From assembly GCA_049513715.1 (NCBI GenBank), contig JBEKVV010000004.1, forward strand, positions 32,001-96,000: a stretch of DNA of 64,000 bases. The letters run 5' to 3'. Source of the stretch: Candidatus Bathyarchaeia archaeon (GTDB taxonomy: Archaea; Thermoproteota; Bathyarchaeia; 40CM-2-53-6). A program made the position numbers and the translations under genes. Of the stretch, positions 10,069 through 48,355 are shown piece by piece. The notes under the pieces were generated by a model that did not search any database, was not told where the DNA came from, and was given only the letters and a program-made list of their open reading frames with translations. The first letter of the stretch is position 1, and each line of letters opens with the position of its first letter.

Positions 10069-10123
10069 CGTCTTGAACGTTAGAATAAATTAGGGAAGAA
10101 AAAAGGAAGGAACCTGCACGGTT

Positions 10124-11734: not shown

Positions 11735-11739
11735 AGGAG

Positions 11740-12492
11740 TTATTCGGGCGCTTGCGCTTTGCTCCGTCTTCTTAACTTGAGCTTCCAACCAATCCAAAGC
11801 CCGAAGCAAATCAAAGCGACGTAGACGACGACATTGAGGTATCTGAAAGCCGAGACTACCGCCTCCCAAGAGTATCCAAGCCACCAGCCCAAATAGACGA
11901 GAACGATGTTCCAAGGCAGGCACCCGGCTAGAGTATACAACGCGAACTTTGTCTTGCTCATGCGGTAAACGCCTGCGGGAAATGAAATTAACACTCTAGC
12001 GGCGGGTACCAAACGGAAGATGGCAACGGCCACAGCGCCATGATGCTCGAACCACACGCCAACCCTTTGAAGGTGCGGCGCGTGGACAAATGGAAGTTTG
12101 GATTTGCTGGTTAGCAACGACTCTCCAAGCTTCCAACCTAAGTAATAATCTATGAACGAGCCTAGGAGAGCGGCAAACGTACTGATGAATATGACCGGCC
12201 AAAATTCCAGAGTGCCCCTGGATACCAAGTATCCCGCAAATGGAAGTACGATCTCACTCGGCACCGGGAAGGCCGCAGCCTCCAATAGCATCAGGACCAA
12301 GACGCCAACATAACCCGTCGCTGAGACAAAATCCAAAACATACTTCGGGAGGTTCGTGACAAATGCAACCATTCCCTCTGTACCGTTCTTACCGCTCGAT
12401 TCGGCGACGTCTTCCAAGTAACTTAAGGAGACTACGGTGACCGGGACGACAAGAAGCAACAAGATTAGCAGGATGCGAACCCAGCGCTTCAT
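11740..12492 (-). CDS. DedA family membrane protein
   Basis: LEAAAFPVPSEIVLPFAG, FRLVPAAR, ISFPAG. Confidence 0.9.
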   Translation of the reverse strand: MKRWVRILLILLLLVVPVTVVSLSYLEDVAESSGKNGTEGMVAFVTNLPKYVLDFVSATGYVGVLVLMLLEAAAFPVPSEIVLPFAGYLVSRGTLEFWPVIFISTFAALLGSFIDYYLGWKLGESLLTSKSKLPFVHAPHLQRVGVWFEHHGAVAVAIFRLVPAARVLISFPAGVYRMSKTKFALYTLAGCLPWNIVLVYLGWWLGYSWEAVVSAFRYLNVVVYVALICFGLWIGWKLKLRRRSKAQAPE

Positions 12493-12568
12493 TCAGTTCA
12501 CCCTCTTTCCCGCGTTCAGTTACGGAAAGAACTGCGCCTCGAACGTTCAAACTCACAAAGACACGTAA

Positions 12569-14506
12569 TCATGCAGCTCTGATTGGAGTTCTCTTACGCC
12601 GCGAAAGCAATGCGAGGGCAGACATGAGAACAATCATCAAAGACGCCTGCACCACCGGCAGTTCTGGAATAGTGTTCATCGTGGGCACTCTGAGAATGGT
12701 GCCTTGGCTTCCACCACCAGGTGTGCCTCCGACAATCAAGCCCGCTCCACTTGATACCATGGATATTGATTCCAAATTGACAGGACCCACAATCGAAGGC
12801 GAAACGAAGTAGACGTTCCAACTGATTCCTGCCCAATGCAGAATAGTTGCTGAGTTGCCTACGGCCCATGCCTCCTGCGGGCTCACTTGAACCACAGAGT
12901 TCAAGTCCGCGGAGACGGAGGTCGCAACGTTGACCCATTTGGTTCCATCATAATGCAGAACTCCTCCTACTGCCCCAACCGCCCAGCCATGCGTCGAATC
13001 TGACAGATAGACCGAGTTCAATCGCGCTCCAGTTGAGCTCGGCATCTTGAGCCATTGGCCGCTAAGGGCTTGATAATGGAGGATTGTTCCCCCGTCCCCG
13101 ACTGCCCAACCATCAGTTGACCCCAGCATGAACACGCTTCGCAGATTGTTCCCCGTGGAGACCTGACTTGCTGCCCACGAGCCTCCAGAATACCTCAGGA
13201 TGATTCCATTATCACCCACAGCCCAACCGTCGCTAGAGTCCACCATGAAAACAGAACGGAGAACGTATCCACTAAGTGGAGCCAGAACCTGCGACCAAGT
13301 TCCTCCATTATAGTGTAAGATCAAGGGCGTAGTTCCTAAGCCTCCAACGGCCCAGCCCTCCGACGGGTTAACCATGAAAACCGAGTAAAGATCAGCTGTT
13401 TGAGCCGCAACTGTTCCTCTTGTTAGCGTATTGCCGTCCCAGTGCGCAACGACCGGTTCACCCAGGCCACTCAAGCAACCGCCTGTGGAGCAGCCCACAA
13501 TCCAGCCGTCGGTACTGCTGGATAGGTAGACTGATTGAAAGCTCGCTGACGGGACTCCCTGCGTAGGTGTGCCTCCAACCGGGATGGTTACTCCGGAGTC
13601 ACCCACCGCCCAACCTGTCTGACCTGCGAAGGATACTGCGTTCAGGTTCTGGTTCGTGCCAAGATAGTTGGGAGGCTGAGCGGTCCAGGCGCCGCCCGAG
13701 TAATGTAGCTCTGCGCCAGAAGTCCCGACAGCCCACCCTTCTGTCGGGCTAAGCATGAACACTGATCTCAGATCTTCGCTTGTTGTTCCAGGTGACACAG
13801 GACCCGTCCATTGTCCTGCAGAGTAATGAAAGATAGTGCCACCGTTGCCGACAGCCCACCCCTCGTTAGCGCTCAACATGAAAATGGAGTTCAGCGTACT
13901 TCCAGTTGTGGTGTAGACCGACCACCCGCCACCGGTGTAATGGTAAATCGCTCCCCCAAGCCCTACTGCCCAACCGTCCGTTGCGCTCGTCATGAAAACC
14001 GAGTTCAACCCGGATCCACCCAAGGTTACCATGCTCCATCCGCCTCCCAGGCCTGCAGCTCCGGACCAATGCCAGAAGGCGCCTGTTGCGGAATCGACGG
14101 CCCAAGCGTCGGTCGGGCTAACCTCGAAAACAGATGAGAGGCTTTGAGCGTTCGGCGAAGAAAGCCCGAGGTCGATACTTGACCATCCTACCGTGCCCCA
14201 GTAAAGTGCCGTAGCACTTCCGAGGCTTCCACCAACCGCAAAACCATTCGTGTAAGATGTCCCAGGTGGCCCGAACGAGACGCCGAGAAGGTCGGCTGTT
14301 GTCCCGGAAGGAACTACGCTCCACCCTCCGCCGTCGAAATGCAGGGTTATCCCAGAATTGCCTACGGCCCAACCACTGGTCAAACTCAAAAGCGTCAAGG
14401 CGTTTAGGCTGTTGGTCGTCGATGGCGATGCCCAGACCTGCGTGCTAATAGATGAATAGCCCAAGAAAATCAGCAAAGCGAGCAGGCCCAAGGATCTTAC
14501 GCGCAA
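12569..14506 (-). CDS. Secreted, membrane-anchored beta-propeller repeat protein with PEF-CTERM-like tail
   Basis: Signal peptide; 14 GWAVG-type repeats; C-terminal IPELP, TM helix and RRKR. Confidence 0.8.
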   Translation of the reverse strand: MRVRSLGLLALLIFLGYSSISTQVWASPSTTNSLNALTLLSLTSGWAVGNSGITLHFDGGGWSVVPSGTTADLLGVSFGPPGTSYTNGFAVGGSLGSATALYWGTVGWSSIDLGLSSPNAQSLSSVFEVSPTDAWAVDSATGAFWHWSGAAGLGGGWSMVTLGGSGLNSVFMTSATDGWAVGLGGAIYHYTGGGWSVYTTTGSTLNSIFMLSANEGWAVGNGGTIFHYSAGQWTGPVSPGTTSEDLRSVFMLSPTEGWAVGTSGAELHYSGGAWTAQPPNYLGTNQNLNAVSFAGQTGWAVGDSGVTIPVGGTPTQGVPSASFQSVYLSSSTDGWIVGCSTGGCLSGLGEPVVAHWDGNTLTRGTVAAQTADLYSVFMVNPSEGWAVGGLGTTPLILHYNGGTWSQVLAPLSGYVLRSVFMVDSSDGWAVGDNGIILRYSGGSWAASQVSTGNNLRSVFMLGSTDGWAVGDGGTILHYQALSGQWLKMPSSTGARLNSVYLSDSTHGWAVGAVGGVLHYDGTKWVNVATSVSADLNSVVQVSPQEAWAVGNSATILHWAGISWNVYFVSPSIVGPVNLESISMVSSGAGLIVGGTPGGGSQGTILRVPTMNTIPELPVVQASLMIVLMSALALLSRRKRTPIRAA

Positions 14507-14624
14507 ATCTATCCCGACACCTGACGGATACTATGTGCTGAGAGTATTAGGCTGGTGCCTAATTTAGTAACTTCTAATCATTGATATGCCACTGCGCTTT
14601 CCATATTTGTCTAGATGCGCCGAG

Positions 14625-15911
14625 ATGCCAAGCAAATACGCCTTAACGAAAATCACTGCGAGAGAAATTCTGGATTCACGAGGCAACCCTACAGTCGAAG
14701 CAATCGCTTATACTAAGAACGAGTGGGAGAAGGCCGCCGTACCATCTGGCGCTTCCACAGGCACGCACGAGGCTCTGGAACTGCGCGATGGCGATCCTAA
14801 ACGGTACAAAGGACTGGGCGTTCAAAAAGCCATTGAAAACATCCAGAAGATCATCGCACCGAAACTGGTCAGCCAGGACCCGCGGCGGCAGTCGAAAATC
14901 GACCAGATGATGATTGAGTTAGATGGAACGCCCAACAAATCGCGGCTAGGAGCAAACGCTATCCTCGCAGTATCGCTGGCCGTGGCTCGGCTCGCAGCGA
15001 AATTAGAACAGATAGATCCCTACGAGTACATTAGCAAAGGAAAGGGAAGGACGCTTCCAGTTCCTGTAATGAACGTGATTAACGGAGGAAAACACGCGGG
15101 CACCGAGCTGAAGATTCAGGAATTCATGATTATGCCCGCTGCCGCGAAGAGTTTCAGCGAATCGCTACGAATTGGTGTGGAGGTATACCATGCGCTTAAG
15201 CAAGTCATCCAGTCAAAGCACGGTAAGCAGGCAATTAACGTAGGAGACGAAGGAGGCTTCGCTCCACCCATTACTAACACCACCGAAGCCGTTGAGATAC
15301 TTATGCAATCTATCTCGAACGCAGGCTACAATGCTGGGAAAGATGTCTTTCTTGGGTTCGACGCCGCCTCATCAGAGTTCTACGACAACGGCACGTACAA
15401 AATCGACGGCGAAAGCAAATCTCCGGAACGACTCATGGAATTCTACTTGGATTTGATTCATCGCTTCCCGATCCGTTATGTTGAAGATCCTTTCGAACAG
15501 GAAGATTTCACGCACACTGCAGAATTCACACGGAAAGTCGGCGACAAGGTTCTGGTTGTCGGCGACGACATATTCGTCACAAACGTGAGGAGGCTGAAGA
15601 GGGGCATTGATGATGGCGCGGCCAACACTCTGTTGCTTAAGGTAAATCAAATTGGAACATTAACAGAAGCTTTAGGTGCTGCTGAACTTGCGTTTCGAAA
15701 TGGCTATGGAGTCGTCACAAGCCACAGGTCAGGGGAGACGGAAGACACAACCATTGCCGATCTCGCTGTGGCCCTGAATTGTGGTAAGATAAAGACAGGT
15801 GCGCCATGCCGCTCCGAACGCACTGCGAAATACAACAGGTTGCTCCGCATTGAAGAAGGGCTGGGTAGGAAGAGCAGGTTCGCCGGCCTAGATGCGTTGC
15901 GCGGGCGCTGA
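14625..15911 (+). CDS. eno: Enolase (phosphopyruvate hydratase)
   Basis: AREILDSRGNPTVE, VPSGASTG, GDEGGF, LLKVNQIGTLTE, SHRSGETED, RSERTAKYN. Confidence 0.98.
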   Translation: MPSKYALTKITAREILDSRGNPTVEAIAYTKNEWEKAAVPSGASTGTHEALELRDGDPKRYKGLGVQKAIENIQKIIAPKLVSQDPRRQSKIDQMMIELDGTPNKSRLGANAILAVSLAVARLAAKLEQIDPYEYISKGKGRTLPVPVMNVINGGKHAGTELKIQEFMIMPAAAKSFSESLRIGVEVYHALKQVIQSKHGKQAINVGDEGGFAPPITNTTEAVEILMQSISNAGYNAGKDVFLGFDAASSEFYDNGTYKIDGESKSPERLMEFYLDLIHRFPIRYVEDPFEQEDFTHTAEFTRKVGDKVLVVGDDIFVTNVRRLKRGIDDGAANTLLLKVNQIGTLTEALGAAELAFRNGYGVVTSHRSGETEDTTIADLAVALNCGKIKTGAPCRSERTAKYNRLLRIEEGLGRKSRFAGLDALRGR

Positions 15912-37395: not shown

Positions 37396-38388
37396 TTATA
37401 TTACCGCAAAACGGCATTCGCAGTGTTTGGAGCATTGCCTTACCAGGTTCTCTCCTGACAAGTAGAGGTCTGTGCTGAAATACCTCTCAGTTCTGTCAGG
37501 TAGTAATGTCACCAGGCTCTTGTTGCGACCAATTTCATTGAGCACATTGATTGAAGCTAGCACGTTCGCTCCTGAGGAGACGCCGACCATCAGACCTAGG
37601 TTTCGTGAAAGTTGTTTCGCCATTTCCACTGCGTCATCGCTCTTGATTGCGACCACTTCGTCTACTTGGTTCATATTCACGATTTCTGGTATGAACCCGT
37701 CTCCGATGCCAGTAATCTTGTGGTCGTGGAGGTCCTTTCTGCCGGAGAGGACAGCTGCTTCTTCCGGTTCCACGGCGACCAAACGAAGTTTCGGGTTTTT
37801 CTCCCTGAGGGCCTTTCCGACGCCCATCAATGTTCCCCCCGTGCCAACGCCTGCCACAAAAGCGTCGATCGATTCAGTTCCCATTTGTTGAAGAATTTCT
37901 TTCCCTGTAGTGTTGTAGTGGGCCATGGTGTTGTCGGGGTTACTGAATTGGTTGGTCAGGAAATAGCGGTGGTCGCTTTCGGCTATCTTCGCGGCCCTTG
38001 CGACGGCTCCTTCAAAACCCTCGGCCTTAGGTGTCAGACAAAGCTCCGCTCCAAGGTTAGTCATTAGGCGGATTCGTTCCCCGGTCATATGTTCGGGCAT
38101 TACGACAAGCATTTTGTAGCCCTTTGCTGCGGCCACCATTGAAAGGGCTATGCCCGTGTTTCCGCTTGTCGCCTCGATGATAGTATAACCCGGTTTCAGA
38201 AGGCCTCGTTTCTCTCCTTGTTCTATCATGTATTTTGCGATGCGGTCCTTCACGCTCCCGCTTGGGTTCATAAATTCTAATTTCGCATGCATTCGACAGG
38301 TCCTGCCTTCAAAGTCTATGTTCAGGATTTGAAGGGGAGTGTTCCCCACGTAATTGAGAACTGATCCTTGCGATGTTAGTGACTTCAC
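37396..38388 (-). CDS. Cysteine synthase family PLP enzyme
   Basis: NPSGSVKDRIA, ATSGNTG, GVGTGGT, GIGDG; Cys-rich C-tail. Confidence 0.88.
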   Translation of the reverse strand: MKSLTSQGSVLNYVGNTPLQILNIDFEGRTCRMHAKLEFMNPSGSVKDRIAKYMIEQGEKRGLLKPGYTIIEATSGNTGIALSMVAAAKGYKMLVVMPEHMTGERIRLMTNLGAELCLTPKAEGFEGAVARAAKIAESDHRYFLTNQFSNPDNTMAHYNTTGKEILQQMGTESIDAFVAGVGTGGTLMGVGKALREKNPKLRLVAVEPEEAAVLSGRKDLHDHKITGIGDGFIPEIVNMNQVDEVVAIKSDDAVEMAKQLSRNLGLMVGVSSGANVLASINVLNEIGRNKSLVTLLPDRTERYFSTDLYLSGENLVRQCSKHCECRFAVI

Positions 38389-38409
38389 GGGGAGGGCCTC
38401 TAGGTTAGG

Positions 38410-39360
38410 TTAGTGCTTCAAGTGTGGAAGGACCTCATCCGCAAACCATTTGATTTGCTTTTCCTGGTTATGAGAACTGAAGCGAATCGCGAAAACACGA
38501 GCTCCCGCATCGTGGAACGCGTTTATGATTTTCACCGCGTCCTTAGGCGACCCGAATGGTCCCCACCGGTCGAGTGGCGGCGCTGCACCATAGTACTTTG
38601 TGAGATAATCAACTGTTTCTGATTTGGCTTTGGATGAGTCATCGTTCAAGTTCATGGTCATGTAGAGCGACGAAATCATTTCTTTCTTCGGAGCGAATGA
38701 CTGAACTTTCGACAATCCTTCTTTGAATTCGTTAGGAAAAACTTCTGCCGACATCCAGCCATCGGTGAATCTAGCGGTTCGTTCGAAGGCTGTGGAGACC
38801 ATTCCACTTGACATTAGGATCTTAGGCCCACCTTCAGTATATGGTTTGGGATCTAGCGTCACATCTTGAAGGCTACAGGTTTTTCCTATGAAATTCACTC
38901 TCTCTTTGCTCCACAGCATCTTCATGACCTTCACGGTCTCATCAGTTCGGCTTATGCGCTGTTTGAAGGGAATGCCGCAACCCTCGAATTCTCTGCGATA
39001 GATTTCCATGGGCCCGCCCACACCAACACCGATTAGCAGCTTCCCAGCGGCAATCAGATCCAAAGTTGCAATCGCGTGCGCAAGAACTACCGGATGCCTT
39101 AGAGCGGGCAGCAGAACCGACATTCCGAGAGTTGATTTTGGACAAACAGCAGCCACCGCGGCCAAGGTTGTGAAAGGATCAAGTCGGGGTTTGGCCAGAA
39201 TACTGTCGCCGACCCAGAGCGAGTTAAACCCAGATTTCTCCGCGAGTTCAGCGAGGTCGAGGATGGTTCGAAAGTCTGGCTTCCCGCCCTTCTGCACGAG
39301 CCCTCTTGTGGGGAGCAAATATCCGTATGATGTTTCGTTATTCATGTCATCGCGTTCCAT
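38410..39360 (-). CDS. Luciferase-like (LLM), probably F420-dependent, oxidoreductase
   Basis: AEKSGFNSLWVGD, LRHPVVLAHAIATLD, GVGVG. Confidence 0.85.
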   Translation of the reverse strand: MERDDMNNETSYGYLLPTRGLVQKGGKPDFRTILDLAELAEKSGFNSLWVGDSILAKPRLDPFTTLAAVAAVCPKSTLGMSVLLPALRHPVVLAHAIATLDLIAAGKLLIGVGVGGPMEIYRREFEGCGIPFKQRISRTDETVKVMKMLWSKERVNFIGKTCSLQDVTLDPKPYTEGGPKILMSSGMVSTAFERTARFTDGWMSAEVFPNEFKEGLSKVQSFAPKKEMISSLYMTMNLNDDSSKAKSETVDYLTKYYGAAPPLDRWGPFGSPKDAVKIINAFHDAGARVFAIRFSSHNQEKQIKWFADEVLPHLKH

Positions 39361-39469
39361 CTTGTTTGATTTAAGTCCACGATATGTACCATAAATAACG
39401 TAAGACGTTCCTTTGAATTAACGAAAACCGAACGAACTTGTTAATAGCGAAGCAGACAACTGAGGCTTT

Positions 39470-40618
39470 ATGATTGAACCTCCTCGCACAATGATGTCGA
39501 CTGGGCCAGTGGAAGTTTCACCCCGAGTTCTCAGGGCACTTGGCACAAGAGTCATTCATCACAGCCGCCCAGAGTTCGGAAAGATATATGAAAAGATGCT
39601 AAGCGATTTGCAGGAAATTTGGAAGACAAAGAACGATATGGTGGTTCTCCACGGTGAAGGAATTATTGGCTTAGAATCCTCAATCGCATGCATGATTAAC
39701 CCGGGGCAGAAAATCATTGTGACCAGCGCGGGTGTCTTCGGTTCTTGGTTCAAGCAATTGATTGAATCACATGAAGGGGTTCCAATAGTTGTTGAAAGTG
39801 ACCCGAGCATGGAGCCAGACTTGGAAAGCGTGAAGACTGTTTTGGATGAGAATCCGGACGCTGCGTTGGTTGTGGGGGTTCACGGTGAAACTGTTGCGGG
39901 CATCGTGAATCCTGTGAACGAGATTTGCAGGTTGGCAAGGAAGAATGGCATTCTGACTGCTATCGATGCCATCGCCACAACTGGGGGGCAGGAGGTTCAG
40001 ACTGATGGATGGAAAATAGACCTGTGCATTGGCGCGAGCCAGCACTGCCTATCTGCACCCCCGGGCCTCACGCAAATCTCAGTTAGCGCGGAGGCGTGGG
40101 AGCAAATGGAGAAGAAGAAAAAGCCGATCAGAAATTCCTACCTGAGTATTCTGGATATGCGAGAAGCTTGGATCAAAGGGCACTACTTCCCCTACACCCC
40201 ATCAGTGTCTGGGGTTTACGCATTAGCCGAGTCATGCGCGGAAATCCTTGATGAAGGGTTAGAGAATGTGTTCCACCGTCACCATGACACTGCAGAAACT
40301 GTAAGGAGAGGCGTTGAGGGGATGGGTTTGAGGCTGTTTGCCGCTGACAAACGCTATGCATTGGACGTCAGCACCACTGTTCGATTGCCAGACGGCATAA
40401 ACGATACAGAATTGCTCGATGCGCTGGTAGCTCGCCATAGCGTTCTGCTTGCTGGTGGATTTAGGGAACTTAAGGGCAAGATCATTCGAATTGGGCATTC
40501 AGGGTACGCAGCTACAATATCCAACGCAATAGCAAGCTTGGCTGCGCTTGAAACCGAGTTCAGGCGGCTTGGGCACAAGTGCGCTCCTGGAAGCGCCGTC
40601 ACTGCCGCCCTATCGTAG
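39470..40618 (+). CDS. Class V aminotransferase-fold protein, pyridoxamine-pyruvate aminotransferase-like, catalytic Lys replaced by His
   Basis: LHGEG, DAIA, GASQHCLSAPPG, FPYTPSVS, RIGH. Confidence 0.8.
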   Translation: MIEPPRTMMSTGPVEVSPRVLRALGTRVIHHSRPEFGKIYEKMLSDLQEIWKTKNDMVVLHGEGIIGLESSIACMINPGQKIIVTSAGVFGSWFKQLIESHEGVPIVVESDPSMEPDLESVKTVLDENPDAALVVGVHGETVAGIVNPVNEICRLARKNGILTAIDAIATTGGQEVQTDGWKIDLCIGASQHCLSAPPGLTQISVSAEAWEQMEKKKKPIRNSYLSILDMREAWIKGHYFPYTPSVSGVYALAESCAEILDEGLENVFHRHHDTAETVRRGVEGMGLRLFAADKRYALDVSTTVRLPDGINDTELLDALVARHSVLLAGGFRELKGKIIRIGHSGYAATISNAIASLAALETEFRRLGHKCAPGSAVTAALS

Positions 40619-40735
40619 AGCAAGGTAAATTGGTCCAGGCAGCCTGTTTGTATTTGTCCGCTAGTTTCTTGTATCACTGCCTTGGTTCAAGTGCGGCAAA
40701 ACGACAGCTTTCTGGGAGATGAACACGGAGCCTTC

Positions 40736-41581
40736 TTACGGGGGTTTGATTCCCATGAGATGATAGAGTATGTTTAGAGTGTAGATGATTCCGGGTTTCG
40801 GCGTGATGATTTGGATATAGTATCCGAGAATCATGGCTGCGATGCAGACTACTGTGGCGTAGTAGTCTAGGGGTTTGAATTTTAGCTCGTGCATGTAAGT
40901 TCGATTGGCTATATTTCCGAAGCCCTTTGATTCGATCGCCGCCGCAATCTGATAACCCCGGCGTATTGAGGTCATGATGATTGGAAAGAGTGTTGGGAGC
41001 ATTGCTCGAACTCGTCGCAGTGGATTTCGATACTCGAACACCCACCCGCGAGCTTTTTGGGCATCCATAATGTTGCCTACTTGTGTCACGAGGACTGGCA
41101 CGTAAGAGAAACCGATGCTTAGCGCAACGCCCAACTCCTTGGGCAACTTAAGCTTAACAAGAGCAAGGACATAGTCTGAAACAGTGGTTGTTAGAGTCAG
41201 AAGCCTGTACGCTGTCACCATCAGAATGAATCGTGCAACAACCCCTAAGGAGAACACGATTCCCTCCAGAGACACTGTATACCCATTAAGCATATACTGG
41301 GGTAGCAGGGAGAAGAACTTCGTTGGCCCAACATAAAACCACAGGTTCGTGAGGAAATAGAAAATCGAAATGGGGACGAGGCCTTTGTAAAGGGCTGACA
41401 TTTTGTTCCACGGAATCCGAGAAACTACGATTAAGAAGACAACGTTGGCGTACACTACAGTAAGTAGTATTGGATCGAACAGGAGTGCGCCGAGTACGAT
41501 GTTGGCTCCAAGCCACAGCAATTTTATTCTTGGGTCAAGCCTGTGCATCACTGAATTGCCTGGGTAGTATTCAAATGCCAT
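40736..41581 (-). CDS. ecfT: ECF transporter T component
   Basis: HRLDPRIK, AQKARG, AIESKGF. Confidence 0.92.
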   Translation of the reverse strand: MAFEYYPGNSVMHRLDPRIKLLWLGANIVLGALLFDPILLTVVYANVVFLIVVSRIPWNKMSALYKGLVPISIFYFLTNLWFYVGPTKFFSLLPQYMLNGYTVSLEGIVFSLGVVARFILMVTAYRLLTLTTTVSDYVLALVKLKLPKELGVALSIGFSYVPVLVTQVGNIMDAQKARGWVFEYRNPLRRVRAMLPTLFPIIMTSIRRGYQIAAAIESKGFGNIANRTYMHELKFKPLDYYATVVCIAAMILGYYIQIITPKPGIIYTLNILYHLMGIKPP

Positions 41582-43336
41582 CTATTGCTTTCCTCCAATC
41601 GTACTCTGAATGAATGAAGTCATTTCCTCCACTGTGAGAACGTCGTTGGGAAAGCCAAAGCTACCCAGCGCTTGAGCCAGCGAGGTAATCTGTGGCGGCC
41701 GTAGGTTTGTTTGCACAAGTTTCTGTGGGTTGGCAAAAATCTCTCGCGTGGACCCATCTGCGAAAATCTGACCATCTTTCATTACTAGTGTTCTGGAACA
41801 ATATTCCGCAACGATGTTCATATCATGTGAAATCGTTACAAGGGTTGTTCCCTTTTTCAAAAGATTCATTGCCAGATCCATGATCTCTTTGCCGCGGAGA
41901 AAATCTTGGCCAGTTGTAGGTTCATCAATGATGAGCAGTTCAGGATCCATGGCTAGGACGGATGCAATGTTGATTCTCTGTTTTTCGCCCTTGCTGAGGT
42001 CTAAGGGATTTTCGCTGATCAAGTTGTAACACTCAACATCTTTCAGGCTCTTCTCGACGCGGCGTTGAATTTCATCTTCTGGCAGTCTGAGGTTTCGTGG
42101 CCCAAATGCGACCTCGGTGCTCACCTTATTGCTGAATATTTGCTGGTCGGGGTCTTGGAATACGAATCCGACCTTCATGGCCATCTCGGGAACAGTGTGT
42201 TCGCGTGTGTCCATTCCGAAGACTCTGACGCTACCGCTCGTGGGTTTCAGCAGGCCGATGAACTGTTTCACCAGTGTGGTTTTCCCAGAGCCGTTCTGGC
42301 CGATTACTCCAATGTTTTCGCCGCGTTTGATCGTGAGGTCCACATTGCTAAGTGCGGGGGATTTCGTATATGGATACTGAAACGTAAGGCCTTTGACCTC
42401 GATGGTTACTTCGTCTTGGTGTGGCGGAAGTTTTTCAGCCTCTGTTGGGACGCGTTTGAGTTGTGGATTTTGAAGAGTATGTCCGTTGTTCCTCAGAAAG
42501 AATGTCAGTGCTGTAATTGCTTGATTCAGTGTTATTGGAATTTTGGGCCAGTTCAATTGGTCGCGAAGCTTGGCGAAGAGGAGGCTAACTTGGGGCGGCT
42601 TCAGTCCGATTGCTTCAATGGCCTCTGCCTGGTTAAGGACTTCCTGAGGGGTCCCTTGGTACTTTATGCTGCCCTCATCCATGACGATCATGCGATCAGC
42701 CTCGCCCACTAACTCCTCCAGCTTATGTTCCACGATCAGGATTGTCTTGTGTTCGATGCGTGCAAGCTCCGAGATTGTCTGGAGCACTTGAGCGCTTCCC
42801 ACCGGGTCGAGGTTGGAAGTTGGTTCATCGAGCACGTAAATCTCAGGGCGCATCGCAAGAATGCTGCCTAGTGCGACGGCTTGCTGTTGTCCTCCTGAGA
42901 GATTGTGTGGGCTCCTACCACTGACTTGTTGAAGTCGAAGTAAACGTATGACGTCGTCAACACGCTTTCGGATCTCAACGGGGGGAACACCATAATTCTC
43001 TGCGCCAAATGCGATGTCATCTTCTACTGTAGCACAGAGAAGTTGCGTTGATGGATCTTGGAATAACATCCCGGCCTTTCCCGACAAGACTGCAGGCCCG
43101 TTGAGTCTCGTGTCGAGCCCGCGCACACTCACCTTCCCTTCCAATGTGCCAGTGTAGAAATGCGGAATCAACCCATTTAGGCAACTGCAGAGTGTTGTCT
43201 TCCCCGCGCCAGCTGGTCCCGTAACGAGAAGGAGCTCACCCGGTTTTACTTGCAGAGTCACGTTCTTCAGAGCCGGCCGCTTCTCACCGCGGTAAGTGTA
43301 CGATACGTTTTCGACTGTTACGTCGTATTCGCTCAT
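41582..43336 (-). CDS. ECF transporter fused double ATPase (A-A')
   Basis: Two ABC domains (GPAGAGKTT/LSGGQQQ and GQNGSGKTT/LSKGEKQR), FQDP; ATG 43336 preferred. Confidence 0.92.
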   Translation of the reverse strand: MSEYDVTVENVSYTYRGEKRPALKNVTLQVKPGELLLVTGPAGAGKTTLCSCLNGLIPHFYTGTLEGKVSVRGLDTRLNGPAVLSGKAGMLFQDPSTQLLCATVEDDIAFGAENYGVPPVEIRKRVDDVIRLLRLQQVSGRSPHNLSGGQQQAVALGSILAMRPEIYVLDEPTSNLDPVGSAQVLQTISELARIEHKTILIVEHKLEELVGEADRMIVMDEGSIKYQGTPQEVLNQAEAIEAIGLKPPQVSLLFAKLRDQLNWPKIPITLNQAITALTFFLRNNGHTLQNPQLKRVPTEAEKLPPHQDEVTIEVKGLTFQYPYTKSPALSNVDLTIKRGENIGVIGQNGSGKTTLVKQFIGLLKPTSGSVRVFGMDTREHTVPEMAMKVGFVFQDPDQQIFSNKVSTEVAFGPRNLRLPEDEIQRRVEKSLKDVECYNLISENPLDLSKGEKQRINIASVLAMDPELLIIDEPTTGQDFLRGKEIMDLAMNLLKKGTTLVTISHDMNIVAEYCSRTLVMKDGQIFADGSTREIFANPQKLVQTNLRPPQITSLAQALGSFGFPNDVLTVEEMTSFIQSTIGGKQ

Positions 43337-43495
43337 TTTCTTGGAGTCACGCTGCTGCACGTCGGACTGTTTGTCTAAAAACGTGCCTATCGTTTGTCAG
43401 GTATAGTAATCCCGTTTTCGATGTATAGACACTCTATTCCATTTCTCACATTCATTATGATGGTGTTAAATACCATCACAGCGCAGTAGCGGTTA

Positions 43496-44062
43496 GTGAA
43501 AAAATTGAGTCAACAGAAAGCTCCGTTACTAACCTCACGTCAACTGGCGACTGCCGCTGTCTTTGGCGGGCTTGGCTTCGCCACCAGGGCAATGGGCTTG
43601 ACTGTCCCCTTGGTTCCACCGCTTGTCGTCGACTTAAGAGCAGTATTTTGGATTCTGGGAGTTGCTGGCTCCGGCCCCGTCGGTGCCATCATCGTTGGTC
43701 TCCTGATAGGATTGCCATCAGCGTTCCCAATTGCATCAATACCCGACGCAATAGTCTATGGCCTAGTATTCTGCATTCTCTACAAGCAAATCCATGCATT
43801 GAAAGGTGCAGTGAAGTATGTGATGCTGGCTATATGGGCAGCTGTGTCCGTGTACGTCGGCGATTTAGTTCTGGTATGGGTCTTCGTATACATCTACCAC
43901 ATCTACCCCGACATGAGCACTGGACTTGCAATTGACTACACAACATCCGCTGTAGTTTGGTCAATTCTAGGTGCGCTCGCGATAATACTGCTAGTCAAAT
44001 ATGCTCCAGACTACGCTGAACCAACGTGGTCTTGGATGAAGTCCAAGATTTCAAAGAAGTGA
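43496..44062 (+). CDS. ECF transporter S component (substrate unknown)
   Basis: LTSRQLATAAVFGGL (AxxxG), GPVGAIIVG, 5-6 TM; divergent from the ECF ATPase/T genes. Confidence 0.75.
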   Translation: MKKLSQQKAPLLTSRQLATAAVFGGLGFATRAMGLTVPLVPPLVVDLRAVFWILGVAGSGPVGAIIVGLLIGLPSAFPIASIPDAIVYGLVFCILYKQIHALKGAVKYVMLAIWAAVSVYVGDLVLVWVFVYIYHIYPDMSTGLAIDYTTSAVVWSILGALAIILLVKYAPDYAEPTWSWMKSKISKK

Positions 44063-44067
44063 TTGAA

Positions 44068-44430
44068 ATGGACCTAATATCAATCCTCTCGACAGTCGTC
44101 CAACAGGCAATGCCGTCAATTCAAGAACGAGTACTCCCTACAATGATCTTCGCTGCTATCATGGTCATCGCTCTCTTAGCCTATGGTGTGATGAAGAAGG
44201 TCAAAGGCGCCATATACGCAGGGATAGTCCTGCTCATTGGCGTACTCTTCGCCTACGTACGCTTCCTCACCCCGTACCTGCCAAGCACGTACAATGCCGG
44301 AATGGCTACAGTACTATTCAACGCTGGAGGCGTGGACGTCACTATAGGAACAGTTGGCGCGATAATCTTCCTGATAGTCGTCGTCGCCATTCTGGTCTGG
44401 TACAGAAAGAACGCGAAACGCTCTCGATAA
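44068..44430 (+). CDS. Small 3-TM membrane protein
   Basis: Three hydrophobic helices, basic C-terminus; begins 5 nt after the S-component stop. Confidence 0.7.
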   Translation: MDLISILSTVVQQAMPSIQERVLPTMIFAAIMVIALLAYGVMKKVKGAIYAGIVLLIGVLFAYVRFLTPYLPSTYNAGMATVLFNAGGVDVTIGTVGAIIFLIVVVAILVWYRKNAKRSR

Positions 44431-44638: not shown

Positions 44639-45658
44639 CTACTGAACCGCTCCAACTGCTGATGGAATCGGAAGGTCGGCCATCGTAACGAGACCTGGGT
44701 TCGCTGCCGCAACTTTCGTAATCATATTAGCGACGACGGCTGCCGTGGCAAGGTCTCCGTGAACTCCTCCCCTGATTACCAAGTCAACAGGAGGAGATCC
44801 CTTGATTACCACTTGATCGAAGGCTTCAGGTGGCCTAAGTGATGCTTGGAACTCGAATTTTACAACCTCTCTGCCATTCAGGTCAATTGCACTGGCAACC
44901 TGAGATAAGCCCCTGACTTGCCCCGGTCTCACCGTGATACACTCGCTTGACACCTCATTGTCGGCGATTATTGGTTCAATCTTCTGTTGTATGTCTTTCA
45001 ATTGTCACCCAAGCTTCTCGGCCACCATAGCTGCTGACTCGGGTAGTCCAATGTGGCCGAACTTCCCGCTAGCCACGTTCTCGTTGAATTCGTCGGGCGA
45101 TAGGCCTGCGCCTATCTTCTTCTGGAAGGGCAGGCGCCTGTTACTGGCGTCTTGTATTCGTCGAGCTATGATTGAGTCGATATCTTGGCACACACCGCTT
45201 GAAGTGAGGACTAACGTGTCCATAAGAAACCCAGGGTTCACACCTGTGCCGAGCATTGTCGTCTTATATTTCTTCGCAAGCCTATCAAGAGCTCTCGATT
45301 CCTTGGGATATTTCTTGAATGGGTATGATAGCTCTTCGCAGGTCGACACGATGTCGAGTTTGGCTTTTGTTATTTGCTCTAACTGACTGATGACGGCCGG
45401 TATGAAGGAAGAAGTGGAGTGCACTACTAGGTCCGCCTTCGCTTCTCTGAAAACCTTCGTTGGATTGTCGGAGACCTTCAAGCCGAGGTTCCGCTGCAAA
45501 CCAGCAACTTCCCCTAAATCTCTTCCAACCTTCGCTTTGTCAATGTCGATGGCACCGACAATCTGGAAACCTTTCTTTCTGACTAAGAGTTTGACTATCG
45601 CGCTTCCGATTGGTCCAATGCCGAACTGGATTATCTTCAAGCCTGTGTCACCTTTCAC
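44639..45658 (-). pseudogene. NAD(P)H-dependent amine dehydrogenase / 2,4-diaminopentanoate dehydrogenase-like gene interrupted by an in-frame TGA
   Basis: GIGPIG, STCEELSYP, GTGVNPGF, FQKKIGAG, GHIGLPES; ...KLG*QLKDIQQKIEP... continues in frame through GGVHGDLAT; TGA at 45005-45007. Confidence 0.8.
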
Positions 45659-46980
45659 TTCGGAATTAGCATCATCAGCGTGACGAGGCTTAGTATCTTT
45701 ATCGTGTTGATGTAATCTTCGAGAATCACGTATTCATCAGGAACATGCCAGGCAGGCGCTCCGCAGGAATAGCAGATCATCGGAATCCCTGCGTCGTAGA
45801 TGGCCCAACGCATGTCCGTAGAAGCCGCTATACCCGTGGCCTTCGGCCTTAAGCCGATGACTTGCTCAGCCGCGAGCTGAGTGTAAACAACGATCGGCTC
45901 GGAGGGTGCAAGTTCACTTGGCCTTACATAGTTGATTACCTCGGCGTCGACTTTCAACTTCGGGTCTGCATTTCGCAATGCACCAAGCATCCTCTCGACA
46001 TCGGCAATGACGGACTGTACGGTCTGGCCAGGCATAGTTCTAATGTCACAAATGACTGAGCATTCATCCGGGATTACGTTCTCCTTTGTGCCCCCTTCGA
46101 TTCGATTCACGCTGATGTATGGACCACCTGGAACGTGAGGGTGTGCTTTCCAGCCAGTGAACTCCATCTGATCAAATGCTTCAGCCACTTTACCCATCTT
46201 GAGAATTGCGTTTGTGAGGAGCTTCTTCTTGCTTGTATGGCCGCCTTCACCTTTTGTGGTTACCTTCAGCCAAATTTGACCATTCGCTGCCAAATGAATT
46301 TCGTCGCGAAGAGCTTCAATGTAAATTGCGCAGTCGCCATGCAATAGATTCGCCTTGATCAATTCGTGAATTCCCTTATGACCTCCAGCTTCCTCGTCAG
46401 CCGCGGCAGCAACAGAAATGCTTCCCACTAGTGGAATGCCTAATTCGACTAGTGCTCGAGCGGCGACTATTGATGACGCTGTCCCAGTCTTGCAATCCAA
46501 TGTACCTCTGCCAAACATCTTTCCGTTCTCAATCACTGCCCCAAATGGAGGGTGTTTCCATTTGGAGAGGTCACCAGGCGGGACAGTGTCTGTGTGGGAG
46601 TAAAGCAGCATTCGCGGCTTTTCCTTTTGAAAGACTTTGTCGCCGACCACGCTTACGCGGTTAGGATAAGGCTCTATGGTCTTAACATCAAAGCCAATTG
46701 ATTGGAGTTCGCGGACAACTATACCTGCTACTTTCTTTTCTCCCTCGAGTTCGTTGTTTACGCTAGGTGTGCGAATGATTTCTTGGAGAAGAGAGATCGC
46801 GTAGGGCCGCAGGTTTTTAATTTTCTCAAACAACTCCTTGGCATGTCTATTCGCCATCTTCAACCTTGTTTGCGCGTCTTCCAGAATCCATTCGTGGTCA
46901 GGTGTTTTCCACGTTCGATATGGTTCACGGCCGTCCATTTCGACTTCGACGAGCCTCGCCTTGTCAACCGTGATAGTCAT
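45655..46980 (-). CDS. M20 (ArgE/DapE-like) metallo-amidohydrolase with N-terminal extension
   Basis: HTDTVP, GRGTLDCK, DEE, GH, WHVPDE. Confidence 0.88.
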   Translation of the reverse strand: MTITVDKARLVEVEMDGREPYRTWKTPDHEWILEDAQTRLKMANRHAKELFEKIKNLRPYAISLLQEIIRTPSVNNELEGEKKVAGIVVRELQSIGFDVKTIEPYPNRVSVVGDKVFQKEKPRMLLYSHTDTVPPGDLSKWKHPPFGAVIENGKMFGRGTLDCKTGTASSIVAARALVELGIPLVGSISVAAAADEEAGGHKGIHELIKANLLHGDCAIYIEALRDEIHLAANGQIWLKVTTKGEGGHTSKKKLLTNAILKMGKVAEAFDQMEFTGWKAHPHVPGGPYISVNRIEGGTKENVIPDECSVICDIRTMPGQTVQSVIADVERMLGALRNADPKLKVDAEVINYVRPSELAPSEPIVVYTQLAAEQVIGLRPKATGIAASTDMRWAIYDAGIPMICYSCGAPAWHVPDEYVILEDYINTIKILSLVTLMMLIPK

Positions 46981-47200: not shown

Positions 47201-48355
47201 ATGCTAATGTGGAATAAAGCTAGAGAACCAATTCGACTTCTTATGACACCGGGCCCTGTCGAAATATCTCCTCGAGTTCTGTCAGCCTTAGCAAGACCTG
47301 AAGTCTACCACTACTACAAAGGGTTCATAGACTTATTCGCCGAAACGACTGAGAAGATGAAGAGGATCTACCAAACAAAGAACGAAGTCCTCATTATGCA
47401 AGGCGAGGGCGTACTCGGCTTAGAGGCAGCCGTACTCAACACTATCAACCCAGGAGACAAAGTATTGGTGTTGGATAACGGACCATTTGGTAAATGGTTT
47501 GGGATCTACGTTGAGAACGCGGGCGGCAAACCCGTCTATCTGACCTCCCCCAACAACGAGGCATTTTACCCGGAGAAACTCAAAGAGAAACTTGATGTTG
47601 AGAAAGACATCAAAGCAATGACGGTTGTGCACTGTGAAACCCCGGCCGGAATTCGCAACCCAATCAAGGAACTCTGCTCCATCGCCAAGAAGAAGGGAAT
47701 CCTAACAATCGTCGACGCAGTCGCATCACTCGCAGGAGACGACGTCAAACCAGATCAGTGGGGAATTGACCTCTGTTGCGGCGCCTCGCAGAAAGCACTC
47801 TCAGCACCGCCCGGGCTAACGTTGTTGTCTGTCAGCAAAGATGCATGGGAGGCAATTGACAACAAGAAGAACCCAATCAAGAACTCTTACGTGAGCATAC
47901 CTGACTATCGGGACACTTGGGTCAAAGAGAAGCGCTTTCCGTTCACGCCAATGGTCTCAGATATCTACGCACTAAACGAGGCCGCTGATGAACTTCTCGA
48001 AGAAGGATTGGAGAGCTCCTTCAAACGACATCAAATCGTTGCAGACGCGTGCCGAGAGGGAGCGGAGAAGATAGGCTTCAAACTTTGGGCTAAGCGACGA
48101 GAAGACGCCTCCAATACAGTAACTGCCCTGCAAATACCGCCATTAGCCACTGACTCTGAGATTGTCAACCACATGGTTCAGAAGTACGGCATATTGATTG
48201 GCGGAGGCTACAAGGAAACTAAAGGCGAGCTGCTAAGAATCGGCCATATGGGCTACCACGCAACCCTAACGAACATCATGACGACGCTCGCCGCACTCGA
48301 AGGAACTCTGGCGGACCTCAAGAAGAAGAAACCCATAGCGGTTCCGGCCAAGTAA
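47201..48355 (+). CDS. Class V aminotransferase, pyridoxamine-pyruvate aminotransferase-like
   Basis: MTPGP, MQGEG, HCETP, DAVAS, SQKALSAPPG, FPFTP, RIGHMG. Confidence 0.85.
   Translation: MLMWNKAREPIRLLMTPGPVEISPRVLSALARPEVYHYYKGFIDLFAETTEKMKRIYQTKNEVLIMQGEGVLGLEAAVLNTINPGDKVLVLDNGPFGKWFGIYVENAGGKPVYLTSPNNEAFYPEKLKEKLDVEKDIKAMTVVHCETPAGIRNPIKELCSIAKKKGILTIVDAVASLAGDDVKPDQWGIDLCCGASQKALSAPPGLTLLSVSKDAWEAIDNKKNPIKNSYVSIPDYRDTWVKEKRFPFTPMVSDIYALNEAADELLEEGLESSFKRHQIVADACREGAEKIGFKLWAKRREDASNTVTALQIPPLATDSEIVNHMVQKYGILIGGGYKETKGELLRIGHMGYHATLTNIMTTLAALEGTLADLKKKKPIAVPAK

What the first reader, a model, noticed from the sequence alone, without database searches (positions are those of the whole stretch)
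39470..40618. Aminotransferase paralog with the Schiff-base lysine replaced by histidine
Seen: GASQ-H-CLSAPPG (CAC at 40043-40045, His192), where the paralog at 47201 has GASQ-K-ALSAPPG (AAA at 47792-47794). Lys to CAC needs two base changes and the rest of the ORF is intact (GEG, ring-binding Asp in DAIA, RIGH), so simple sequencing error or decay is unlikely. Known: fold-type I enzymes with His at this position (ColD, CDP-sugar E1 dehydrases) use PMP for dehydration/deoxygenation. Inference: this is a new pyridoxamine-dependent chemistry, a B6-vitamer binding or sensing protein, or a non-catalytic partner subunit.
Basis: partly seen in the sequence, partly recalled or inferred. Interest (0 to 1): 0.78.

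Follow-up and report, generated by a model that had tools for sequence, protein, structure and literature searches.

The report
Lysine-free pyridoxamine-transaminase-like enzyme clade
A soil archaeon carries a well-conserved relative of a vitamin-B6-converting enzyme in which the lysine that normally holds the vitamin is a histidine, and it always travels with two partner enzymes and a nutrient importer, so it is probably a working enzyme of an undescribed uptake pathway.

Summary
ORF 39470-40618 (382 aa) reads GASQ-H-CLSAPPG, with His192 (CAC 40043-40045) where the paralog at 47201 and all solved relatives have the Schiff-base Lys. It is neither an error nor decay. Four separately assembled peat/wetland contigs are identical. 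25 of 120 homolog clusters (57-98% identity) carry His in SQHCLS[AC]PPG. dN/dS is 0.05-0.07.

Both window paralogs belong to the pyridoxamine-pyruvate aminotransferase (PPAT)-like branch of class V enzymes. This branch has Glu in place of the phosphate-binding Ser/Thr, and in PPAT the free B6 vitamer is a substrate rather than a tethered cofactor.

The His clade is monophyletic, sits on a long stem, and is sister to the Lys paralog's clade. It collapses to one representative among 1.84 billion. It keeps the ring-N1 Asp, the conserved Thr, the stacking aromatic and the carboxylate Arg.

It is co-conserved with an F420-type luciferase-like oxidoreductase, an M20 amidohydrolase and an importer (Opp/Dpp ABC elsewhere, ECF here). 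The genome shows no PdxS, PdxJ or PdxA.

Best reading (about 0.5): an active enzyme that binds an unphosphorylated B6 vitamer non-covalently and uses His as acid/base. The substrate is unknown. This is a new variant of a known kind.

The parts
39470..40618 (+). H gene: PPAT-like class V fold-type I protein, 382 aa, with His at the Schiff-base position
   Evidence: PF00266 78.9 bits; NF046070 301.6 bits, below the cut-off of 600; AF2 pLDDT 95.7; Foldseek top hit 2z9u, TM 0.94
40043..40045 (+). CAC = His192, aligned to PPAT Lys197
39656..39658 (+). GAA = Glu63 of the 'HGEG' motif, aligned to the Glu of PPAT 'HGEP'; canonical relatives have Ser/Thr here in G[ST]G
   Evidence: The role of the PPAT Glu in excluding the phosphate is recalled and was not seen in any call
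39965..39967 (+). GAT = Asp166, aligned to PPAT Asp171 (pyridine N1 partner); invariant in all 91 aligned sequences
40487..40489 (+). CGA = Arg340, invariant family-wide; aligns to the PPAT Arg that binds the substrate carboxylate
   Evidence: The role of this Arg is recalled
38410..39360 (-). Luciferase-like (F420-type, TIGR03619-like) oxidoreductase, divergent from H across 109 bp; orthologs lie beside H in other loci
   Evidence: 63-65% identity to the LLMs of L002, L004, L006, L012 and L013, against at most 31% for other G000 paralogs
39361..39469 (.). Intergenic region shared by the divergent LLM and H genes (presumed bidirectional promoter region; not analysed)
   Evidence: Coordinates; the same divergent layout is seen in L002, L004, L012 and L013
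45655..46980 (-). M20 amidohydrolase (ArgE/DapE family, TIGR01910 237 bits, above cut-off); ortholog of the M20 gene directly downstream of H in 7 other loci
   Evidence: 56-60% identity, against at most 33% for other G000 paralogs
40736..41581 (-). ECF transporter T component (CbiQ family)
   Evidence: PF02361, 115 bits; L008 (H 82% identical) has the same neighbour
41582..43360 (-). Fused ECF A1-A2 ATPase (two ABC_tran domains)
43496..44062 (+). 188-aa membrane protein, candidate ECF S component (substrate unknown)
   Evidence: No Pfam or NCBIfam family. ESM Atlas nearest clusters include PF07155-type S components at 0.91-0.92 (a lead only)
47201..48355 (+). K1 paralog: PPAT-like with Lys retained ('QGEG', 'ETPAG', 'SQK'); member of the sister clade of the His clade

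Best explanation
The ORF encodes a full-length protein under strong purifying selection. It belongs to the pyridoxamine-pyruvate-aminotransferase-like (PPAT-like) branch of class V fold-type I enzymes, and its Schiff-base lysine has become histidine. The protein most likely still binds a B6 vitamer in the old pocket. Binding would be non-covalent, and the vitamer is probably unphosphorylated (pyridoxamine or pyridoxal), because the branch carries Glu where canonical enzymes have their phosphate-binding Ser/Thr. His192 would serve as the general acid/base that moves the proton between C4' and C-alpha. Two chemistries fit this picture: a lysine-free pyridoxamine/pyridoxal:(oxo/amino)acid transamination, or a ColD-like pyridoxamine-dependent elimination. 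In PPAT-type enzymes the vitamer is a substrate that is released every turnover, so a covalent tether is not needed and only a base is required. The protein works inside a conserved module: an importer (Opp/Dpp-type ABC in most lineages, ECF type here), an M20 amidohydrolase that would free an amine or amino acid from an imported amide or peptide-like compound, and an F420-type luciferase-like oxidoreductase. SHOWN: the substitution, its conservation, the selection, the family placement, the retention of pocket residues, and the gene module. INFERRED: vitamer binding, the catalytic role of His, the order of steps, and the substrate (unknown).
For: (1) His is fixed in a monophyletic clade. 25 of 120 cluster representatives carry it. 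The clade has SH-aLRT 100 and a stem of 0.57, is sister to the K1 clade (95), and sits inside the 42-row Glu63 group (99). (2) dN/dS is 0.070, 0.073, 0.047 and 0.055 in the four unsaturated pairs. This is similar to the Lys paralog's 0.048 and 0.039. (3) Pocket residues are retained. D166, T141 and R340 are invariant in all 91 aligned sequences. E63, F90, Q191, Y242 and T243 are invariant or nearly so within the clade. D166 and H192 align to PPAT D171 and K197. (4) The fold is intact: AF2 pLDDT 95.7, and Foldseek gives TM 0.94 and rmsd 1.8 A to PPAT 2z9u over 382 columns. (5) There is a precedent for His acting as base with a non-covalent aminated cofactor: E1, ColD and SpnQ (PMC8987622). PPAT releases its vitamer each turnover (PMC9309667 section 7). 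(6) A co-conserved enzyme context argues for a metabolic role. M20 lies immediately downstream and co-directional in 7 of 11 loci where the downstream side is visible. LLM lies in 6 of 11 loci where the upstream side is visible. Opp/Dpp parts occur in 7 of 15 loci. The window's LLM and M20 are the orthologs of those genes. (7) No PdxS, PdxJ or PdxA was found in G000 (99.4% complete), so external B6 vitamers should matter to this organism.
Against: No biochemical data exist for any clade member. I could not obtain model coordinates, so the geometry of His192 relative to a bound vitamer was not measured. The phosphate-excluding role of the Glu is recalled from the PPAT structure paper, which is not held. 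The H clade has 14 clade-specific invariant changes, including V142 in the 'ETP/ETS' motif next to the conserved Thr, so the pocket may no longer fit a B6 ring. PPAT's second carboxylate Arg (recalled as Arg336) aligns to F331, and an Arg sits one position later at R332. Opp/M20 modules usually carry bulk peptide flux, which fits poorly with a diffusible vitamer as co-substrate. The absence of PdxS is common in this class (170 of 201 genomes lack it), so it does not single out H-bearing genomes. No RNA data were available.
Confidence: 0.5

Rival explanations
1. The protein is a non-catalytic B6-vitamer (or other small-molecule) binding protein. It would act as a sensor, buffer or chaperone that holds pyridoxamine or pyridoxal without turning it over, for example handing it to the neighbouring enzymes or the importer.
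For: Loss of the Schiff-base and base Lys is the usual mark of inactivation in this fold. The ring- and carboxylate-binding residues are retained, which fits a pure binding role as well as catalysis. An importer is always adjacent. The genome appears to lack PLP synthesis.
Against: The replacement is always His, which is a competent acid/base (25 of 25 His-bearing clusters), rather than a mix of residues. Constraint is as strong as on the Lys paralog. The gene overlaps, or lies within about 12 nt of, an M20 hydrolase gene in 7 loci, as an enzyme of a pathway would. Known His-for-Lys relatives are enzymes.
Confidence: 0.2
2. The protein is an enzyme that no longer uses vitamin B6 at all. The old fold and pocket would have been recruited for a different, cofactor-independent or differently cofactored reaction on the module's substrate.
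For: The clade sits on a long stem branch (0.57 substitutions per site). It has 14 clade-specific invariant residues, including R33, W51, V142, Q174, M230, R332 and S344. The phosphate site was already lost in the parent branch.
Against: Asp166 is invariant, and its known role is to pair with the pyridine N1. The conserved Thr141 and the aromatic at position 90 are also kept.
Confidence: 0.1
3. The protein is a non-catalytic partner subunit. H would form a heterodimer with a Lys-bearing paralog (K1 at 47201 or another) and contribute only its half of a shared active site, as reported for the lysine-less Ser4 with Ser5.
For: Fold-type I active sites lie at dimer interfaces. A Lys-less aminotransferase-fold protein that forms a hetero-oligomer with a complete paralog is in print (PMC11726168; abstract seen in the listing). 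In the window K1 lies 6.6 kb away, beside the M20 gene.
Against: No second class V gene lies on any of the 15 H-clade contigs (78,471 bp). G001 has H but no Glu-type Lys paralog was found there (completeness unknown). H is full length, unlike the truncated Ser4. K1 orthologs occur in many relatives that lack H.
Confidence: 0.08
4. The His is a sequencing or assembly error, or the gene is decaying.
For: None found. Genome contamination is estimated at 8.79%.
Against: Four contigs are identical over the stretch. The clade conserves His. dN/dS is about 0.05-0.07. The frame is intact in all 7 full-length loci.
Confidence: 0.01

Closest known systems
Pyridoxamine-pyruvate aminotransferase (PPAT, EC 2.6.1.30) of Mesorhizobium loti, PDB 2Z9U/V/W/X
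   Same: It is the best sequence and fold match: E 1e-69 in a gapless alignment of 376 residues, and TM 0.94 at 36% identity. The same 'HGE' Glu replaces the phosphate-loop Ser/Thr. The Asp to N1 (D171/D166), the conserved Thr and the C-terminal Arg are the same. PPAT is PLP-independent, and the vitamer is a released substrate.
   Different: Lys197 is His. The NF046070 score is 301.6 against a cut-off of 600. 'DTPSG' is 'ETVAG'. PPAT's second carboxylate Arg (recalled as Arg336) aligns to Phe, with an Arg one position later. PPAT sits in a bacterial B6-degradation pathway, whereas this gene sits with LLM, M20 and an importer in archaea.
ColD, E1 (AscC/DdhC) and SpnQ: PMP-dependent nucleotide-sugar 3-dehydratases (DegT/DnrJ/EryC1 family)
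   Same: They are fold-type I, carry His exactly at the Schiff-base Lys position, hold the cofactor non-covalently in the aminated form, and use His as acid/base (PMC8987622).
   Different: They belong to a different family; there is no PF01041 hit. They bind phosphorylated PMP. Their substrates are NDP-4-keto-6-deoxy sugars in glycan operons, and E1 and SpnQ have a [2Fe-2S] motif. None of this context is present here.
Window paralog K1 (47201-48355) and its clade
   Same: It is the sister clade at 43% identity. It shares the Glu motif and occurs in the same organism group. It is also found next to ECF transporters and LLM genes in relatives.
   Different: It keeps Lys and has 'ETPAG'. It is widespread in the genus and family, whereas H was found in none of the 300 other genomes sampled from the class.
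Ser4/Ser5 hetero-oligomeric sugar aminotransferase of Serratia sp. ATCC 39006
   Same: It is a fold-type I protein without the catalytic Lys that is retained for function (abstract).
   Different: Ser4 is truncated at both ends and encoded in tandem with its complete partner. H is full length and has no tandem partner.
Alanine-glyoxylate / serine-pyruvate aminotransferases (class V, for example 1VJO, 3ISL PucG, human AGT)
   Same: Same Pfam family and fold.
   Different: They have the canonical 'G[ST]G' and 'ETSTG' phosphate and O3' motifs and the Lys, and are PLP-dependent. In the tree, H sits inside the Glu-type group and not among them.

Membership tests
Class V aminotransferase fold (Pfam PF00266, fold-type I) | HMM score above the gathering threshold | tested here: met
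   78.9 bits against 21.5
Class V aminotransferase fold (Pfam PF00266, fold-type I) | Fold-type I architecture | tested here: met
   AF2 pLDDT 95.7; TM 0.91-0.95 to more than 40 class V structures
Class V aminotransferase fold (Pfam PF00266, fold-type I) | Schiff-base Lys in the S-x-K motif | tested here: not met
   His192
Class V aminotransferase fold (Pfam PF00266, fold-type I) | Asp pairing with the pyridine N1 | tested here: met
   D166 is invariant and aligns to PPAT D171
Pyridoxamine-pyruvate aminotransferase (NCBIfam NF046070, EC 2.6.1.30) | Equivalog HMM cut-off of 600 bits | tested here: not met
   301.6 bits; K1 scores 327.6
Pyridoxamine-pyruvate aminotransferase (NCBIfam NF046070, EC 2.6.1.30) | Lys197 forming the aldimine with pyridoxal | tested here: not met
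   His at the aligned column
Pyridoxamine-pyruvate aminotransferase (NCBIfam NF046070, EC 2.6.1.30) | Glu in the phosphate loop (recalled as Glu68) giving specificity for unphosphorylated vitamers | tested here: met
   E63 in 'HGEG' aligns to 'HGEP' of 2z9u. The functional meaning is recalled, not read
Pyridoxamine-pyruvate aminotransferase (NCBIfam NF046070, EC 2.6.1.30) | PM + pyruvate <-> PL + L-Ala activity without PLP | not testable with these tools
   Needs an enzyme assay
ColD/E1/SpnQ PMP-dependent 3-dehydratases | His at the Lys position | tested here: met
ColD/E1/SpnQ PMP-dependent 3-dehydratases | Membership of the DegT/DnrJ/EryC1 family (PF01041) | tested here: not met
   Only PF00266 was reported at E <= 0.001
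ColD/E1/SpnQ PMP-dependent 3-dehydratases | Nucleotide-sugar biosynthesis gene context | tested here: not met
   Neighbours are LLM, M20, and Opp/Dpp or ECF genes
Lysine-less partner subunit (Ser4/Ser5 type) | Complete Lys-bearing paralog encoded in tandem | tested here: not met
   No second class V match on the 15 H-clade loci; in the window K1 is 6.6 kb away
Lysine-less partner subunit (Ser4/Ser5 type) | Physical hetero-oligomer | not tested
   Complex prediction was not run. Paralogs of one fold would pass by likeness to solved dimers, so the result would not discriminate

The most novel reading that the evidence does not exclude
The LLM + H + M20 + importer module is a salvage route for a bound or conjugated form of vitamin B6 (or a related micronutrient) in peat and soil Thaumarchaeota that show no recognisable PLP synthesis genes. 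The importer would bring in the conjugate. M20 would cleave an amide bond. The F420-type oxidoreductase would adjust the oxidation state. H would be a natural transaminase that works with no Schiff-base lysine, because its B6 vitamer is the substrate and His192 supplies the proton shuttle. If so, this would be the first lysine-free transaminase chemistry in the class V/PPAT lineage and a new vitamin cross-feeding pathway.
Probability: 0.15. Interest if true: 0.85.

Novelty: new variant of a known kind. Interest (0 to 1): 0.66.

Why it matters
The Schiff-base lysine is the most conserved feature of B6 enzymes. The only well-studied natural His replacements are the PMP-dependent sugar 3-dehydratases. 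Here the same replacement is fixed, under strong constraint, in a different family whose characterised member treats the vitamer as a released substrate. In that setting the tether should be dispensable, so the clade is a natural test of what the lysine is needed for. The clade also marks an undescribed four-part uptake-and-conversion module in peat and soil Thaumarchaeota, organisms in which no PdxS, PdxJ or PdxA was found. It may therefore bear on how these archaea obtain vitamin B6 or use peptide-like compounds. The hypothesis is directly testable with one recombinant protein and simple spectroscopy.

Tried and rejected
1. RNA evidence: the look-up of sequencing runs listed no RNA holder, so expression was not assessed.
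2. The two primary PPAT papers (Biochem J 2006, PMC1482817; JBC 2008) are not held. The roles of Glu68 and Arg336/Arg345 are therefore recalled, not read.
3. Literature searches for a Lys-to-His class V or PPAT-like enzyme. (pyridoxamine-pyruvate + archaea/Thaumarchaeota): none of the 15 listed papers held the phrase. (catalytic lysine / replaced by histidine / PMP-dependent / aminotransferase): 0 papers. (lack/lacks/lacking the catalytic lysine, fold type I): only Ser4/Ser5 was relevant; 12 papers hold 'pyridoxamine-pyruvate aminotransferase' plus 'phosphate', and none concerns a His form judging by the listing and the passages read. One search was a poorly chosen search with no useful result.
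4. The search of earlier findings by place and by sequence returned nothing.
5. The first MAFFT run timed out and was rerun with faster settings.
6. An Fe-S site like that of E1/SpnQ was considered and dropped. No four-Cys motif was seen, and C193 is also common in the Lys rows.
7. A relocated lysine was considered. No clade-specific Lys lies in the pocket motifs. K52 and K122 are invariant in the clade but lie at the end of helix 34-51 and in helix 118-127. Distances could not be measured.
8. A nickel/cobalt transport reading of the importers was considered. The SBP hits NikA-like models only weakly (71 bits against a cut-off of 600), and CbiQ is the generic ECF T family. No CbiM/N was seen, so the idea was dropped.
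9. Complex prediction was not run (see Membership tests).
10. Substrate identification from the M20, LLM and SBP subfamilies failed. All score below equivalog cut-offs except the broad TIGR01910.
Full report
OBSERVATION. The ORF at 39470-40618 (+) is open and encodes 382 aa containing ...IDLCIGASQHCLSAPPGL.... CAC at 40043-40045 is codon 192. The paralog at 47201-48355 (K1, 384 aa) reads ...CCGASQKALSAPPGL... and is 43% identical over 368 gap-free positions.

NOT AN ERROR, NOT DECAY.
- The 3.2-kb stretch 38400-41600 is held whole in 24 wetland or peat runs.
- Contigs of four of those runs (depth 14-62) match 39400-40700 with no difference. They may share a source with the window, but each run was assembled separately.
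- A search of 5.8 billion clustered proteins gave 136 hits at E <= 1e-20, of which 120 were listed.
- In a MAFFT alignment of those 120, 25 representatives (P0001-P0024 and P0027, 57-98% identical to the query) have His at this column within SQHCLS[AC]PPG. A further 94 have Lys, and one (P0117, no Pfam domain) is misaligned.
- In nine H-clade DNA loci the codon is CAC eight times and CAT once. L009 and L010 also read QHC.
- Nei-Gojobori dN/dS for the four pairs with unsaturated dS is 0.070 (window-L003), 0.073, 0.047 and 0.055. Of the 36 pairs computed, most are saturated. The near-identical pair L002-L004 gives a meaningless 0.307 from a handful of changes.
- The Lys paralog's orthologs give 0.048 and 0.039, so H is constrained about as strongly as K1.

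WHAT FAMILY.
- Pfam reports only Aminotran_5 (78.9 bits).
- The best NCBIfam model for both paralogs is NF046070, pyridoxamine-pyruvate transaminase. The scores are 301.6 (H) and 327.6 (K1), against an equivalog cut-off of 600, so neither is an equivalog.
- The best solved relative is 2z9u (E 1e-69, gapless over 376 residues). Foldseek and two papers identify it as Mesorhizobium loti PPAT.
- The AF2 model is confident (pLDDT 95.7, pTM 0.93). Its top structural match is 2z9u (TM 0.94, rmsd 1.8 A, 36% identity).
- The review PMC9309667 (section 7 read) states that PPAT is PLP-independent, that PM or PL is a substrate released each turnover, and that K197 forms the aldimine with pyridoxal and D171 pairs with N1. 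In the gapless alignment these are H192 and D166 of the query.

THE PPAT-LIKE BRANCH.
- Motif tables split the 91 aligned sequences into two types. The canonical type has G[ST]G...ETSTG...SQK. The second type has [QH]GE[GAP]...ETP[SA]G...SQK and includes 2z9u ('HGEP', 'DTPSG').
- H ('HGEG', 'ETVAG') and K1 ('QGEG', 'ETPAG') are both of the Glu type.
- I recall, but could not read, that the PPAT structure paper attributes exclusion of the 5'-phosphate to this Glu (Glu68).
- I built an IQ-TREE (quick search, LG+G4) of 91 rows. I left out 31 of the 120 listed hits: five near-duplicate or partial H-clade rows, 25 Lys rows to limit redundancy, and P0117.
- In this tree the 21 His rows form one clade (SH-aLRT 100) on a stem of 0.57 substitutions per site. 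That clade is sister to the six-row K1 clade (95). Both sit inside the 42-row Glu group (99), which sits among the canonical Lys rows. One Lys-to-His change suffices to explain the pattern.
- An hmmsearch with the H-clade profile over 1.84 billion 50% representatives returned a single H-type representative (P0010, 711 bits). The next hit scores 433 bits. Of the 150 best hits, 147 have Lys, one His, one Asn (P0216) and one Pro (P0231, probably misaligned).

WHAT IS KEPT AND WHAT CHANGED.
- G88, T141, D166, G263, R340 and G345 are invariant across all 91 sequences.
- Within the clade E63, F90, Q191, H192, C193, Y242, T243 and the GHSGY motif are invariant or nearly so.
- Fourteen positions are fixed in the His clade and rare in the Lys rows: T11, R33, W51, M57, I65, S71, V142, Q174, H192, M230, C256, R332, S344 and E363.
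- The PPAT Arg that I recall as the second carboxylate ligand (Arg336) aligns to F331, with the clade-specific R332 next to it.
- No clade-specific Lys appears in the pocket motifs.
- The pattern is therefore a retained ring and carboxylate site, a new acid/base residue, and a remodelled periphery. This looks like neofunctionalisation rather than loss of function.

GENE NEIGHBOURHOOD.
- Genome scans found two H-clade loci titled 'Thaumarchaeota archaeon' and 'Nitrososphaerales archaeon'. The scan was pattern-based, and the window's own genome may be left out.
- Metagenome scans found 13 further H-clade loci from soil and peat.
- I scanned 45 neighbouring ORFs with Pfam.
- An M20 peptidase gene lies immediately downstream and co-directional, overlapping H or within about 12 nt of it, in 7 of the 11 loci where the downstream side is visible (L001, L002, L004, L006, L007, L009, L015).
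- A luciferase-like oxidoreductase gene lies beside H or in its operon in 6 of the 11 loci where the upstream side is visible (window, L002, L004, L006, L012, L013).
- Opp/Dpp-type ABC parts are present in 7 of 15 loci.
- L006 shows the full string SBP-LLM-oppBCDF-H-M20.
- In the window the same LLM (63-65% identical to those beside H elsewhere) is divergent from H across 109 bp. The same M20 (56-60% identical) lies 5 kb away at 45655-46980. All other LLM and M20 paralogs in the genome are at most 33% identical.
- Between H and M20 in the window sits an ECF importer in place of Opp: a T component, a fused A1A2 ATPase, and a candidate S component without a family. L008 (82% identical H) has the same CbiQ neighbour.
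- The conserved unit is therefore importer + LLM + H + M20.
- No second class V gene lies on any of the 15 loci (78,471 bp).

THE PARALOGS AND DISTRIBUTION.
- G000 (2.79 Mb, 11 contigs, 99.4% complete, 8.79% contamination) has five class V genes: H, two Glu-type Lys forms (K1 and K2) and two canonical forms.
- In a sample of 300 other genomes of the same class, none has an H-type gene. The best other match is 44% identical, and these matches are K1 orthologs.
- K1 orthologs (72-83% identical) lie beside a different ECF system (S component PF07155, T, A1A2) in G160, G157 and G166, and beside LLM genes in G226 and G238.
- G002 has H plus K1-type genes. In G001 only canonical Lys paralogs were found besides H (completeness unknown).

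B6 SUPPLY.
- No PdxS (PF01680), PdxJ (PF03740) or PdxA (PF04166) was found in G000. The controls rang in 10, 4 and 5 of 14 named genomes.
- PdxS was also not found in G001 or G002.
- PdxS was found in only 31 of 201 genomes sampled from the class. Its absence is therefore common in this group and not specific to H-bearing genomes.
- One weak Phos_pyr_kin match exists (28.8 bits).
- I did not search PdxT or PdxH.
- If these archaea depend on external B6, enzymes that interconvert free vitamers, which is what PPAT does, would have an obvious use. This is inference.

HOW IT MOST LIKELY WORKS.
- Shown: a constrained His-for-Lys protein of the PPAT-like branch with an intact ring and carboxylate site, embedded in an importer/LLM/M20 module.
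- Inferred: it binds PM or PL non-covalently and uses His192 as the proton shuttle.
- Inferred: the reaction is either a transamination in which the vitamer is a co-substrate, so no tether is needed, or a ColD-like elimination.
- Inferred: the compound acted on is produced by the M20 hydrolase from the imported molecule.
- Published His-for-Lys enzymes (E1, ColD, SpnQ) show that His can play this role with a non-covalent aminated cofactor.
- I put about 0.5 on 'active, non-covalent B6, His as base', 0.2 on a non-catalytic vitamer-binding protein, 0.1 on an enzyme that has abandoned B6, 0.08 on a heterodimer partner (precedent Ser4/Ser5, abstract only), and about 0.01 on artefact.

COMPARISON AND NOVELTY.
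- The protein works most like PPAT in scaffold and vitamer site, and like ColD/E1 in having His as base. It fails defining features of both families, as listed in Membership tests.
- My searches found no description of a His form in the class V or PPAT lineage. Most subscription papers and the primary PPAT papers are not in the library, so this is not proof of absence.
- Earlier unchecked notes of this scan report conserved Lys-to-His clades in other aminotransferase families. The replacement therefore seems to recur across the superfamily, which tempers the surprise.
- I rate the finding a new variant of a known kind.

CAVEATS.
- The tree used a quick search without a mixture model.
- Context counts rest on short contigs and a simple longest-ORF gene call.
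- The organism's name is inferred only from the titles of L001 and L002.
- The substrate remains unknown.

Noticed in passing
window 44639-45658 (-), stop at 45005-45007: A 2,4-diaminopentanoate-dehydrogenase-like gene (DapB_N + DAP_DH_C) is interrupted by one in-frame TGA. The Pfam profile runs straight across it (positions 1-75, then 79-196). In five relatives (52-54% identical, no stops) the aligned residue is Trp ('GLGW' / 'AMGW'). This is most simply a TGG-to-TGA nonsense change (a fresh pseudogene or strain variant), but read-through or recoding is not excluded.
   Followed up: partly
whole genome G000 (window = C4:32001-96000): No PdxS, PdxJ or PdxA was found in a genome estimated 99.4% complete. 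PdxS was found in only 31 of 201 genomes sampled from the class. The genome nevertheless encodes PLP enzymes (cysteine synthase at 37396-38388 and canonical class V aminotransferases). Either B6 auxotrophy is widespread in this group or there is an unrecognised PLP route.
   Followed up: partly
L125 (G160:C4) 9667-14245; L127 (G157:C86) 10140-14803; L101 (G166): Orthologs of the Lys paralog K1 (72% identical) lie directly beside a complete ECF importer (S component PF07155, T, fused A1A2) in three genomes of a sister genus. PPAT-like genes thus sit next to ECF importers twice independently (K1 there, H here). This hints that the Glu-type Lys forms serve vitamer salvage.
   Followed up: partly
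window 43496-44062 (+) and 44026-44430 (+): There are two small membrane proteins with no Pfam or NCBIfam family, divergent from the ECF A/T genes. By ESM Atlas features (0.91-0.92) the 188-aa protein resembles ECF S components. It may be an S component of unknown specificity.
   Followed up: partly
L085 (G000:C3:310494-314576): The second Glu-type Lys paralog (K2) is preceded by a 195-aa protein with a Cucumopine_C domain (PF18631, E 4e-16). It is followed by an AsnC-type regulator and a PALP-fold gene. This may be an opine-like amino-acid-conjugate locus.
   Followed up: no
window 37396-38388 (-): A cysteine synthase (TIGR01136, 375.6 bits, above cut-off) lies 21 bp downstream of, and co-directional with, the LLM gene, so it may be co-transcribed with it in this genome. 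This pairing is not seen in the other H-clade loci.
   Followed up: no
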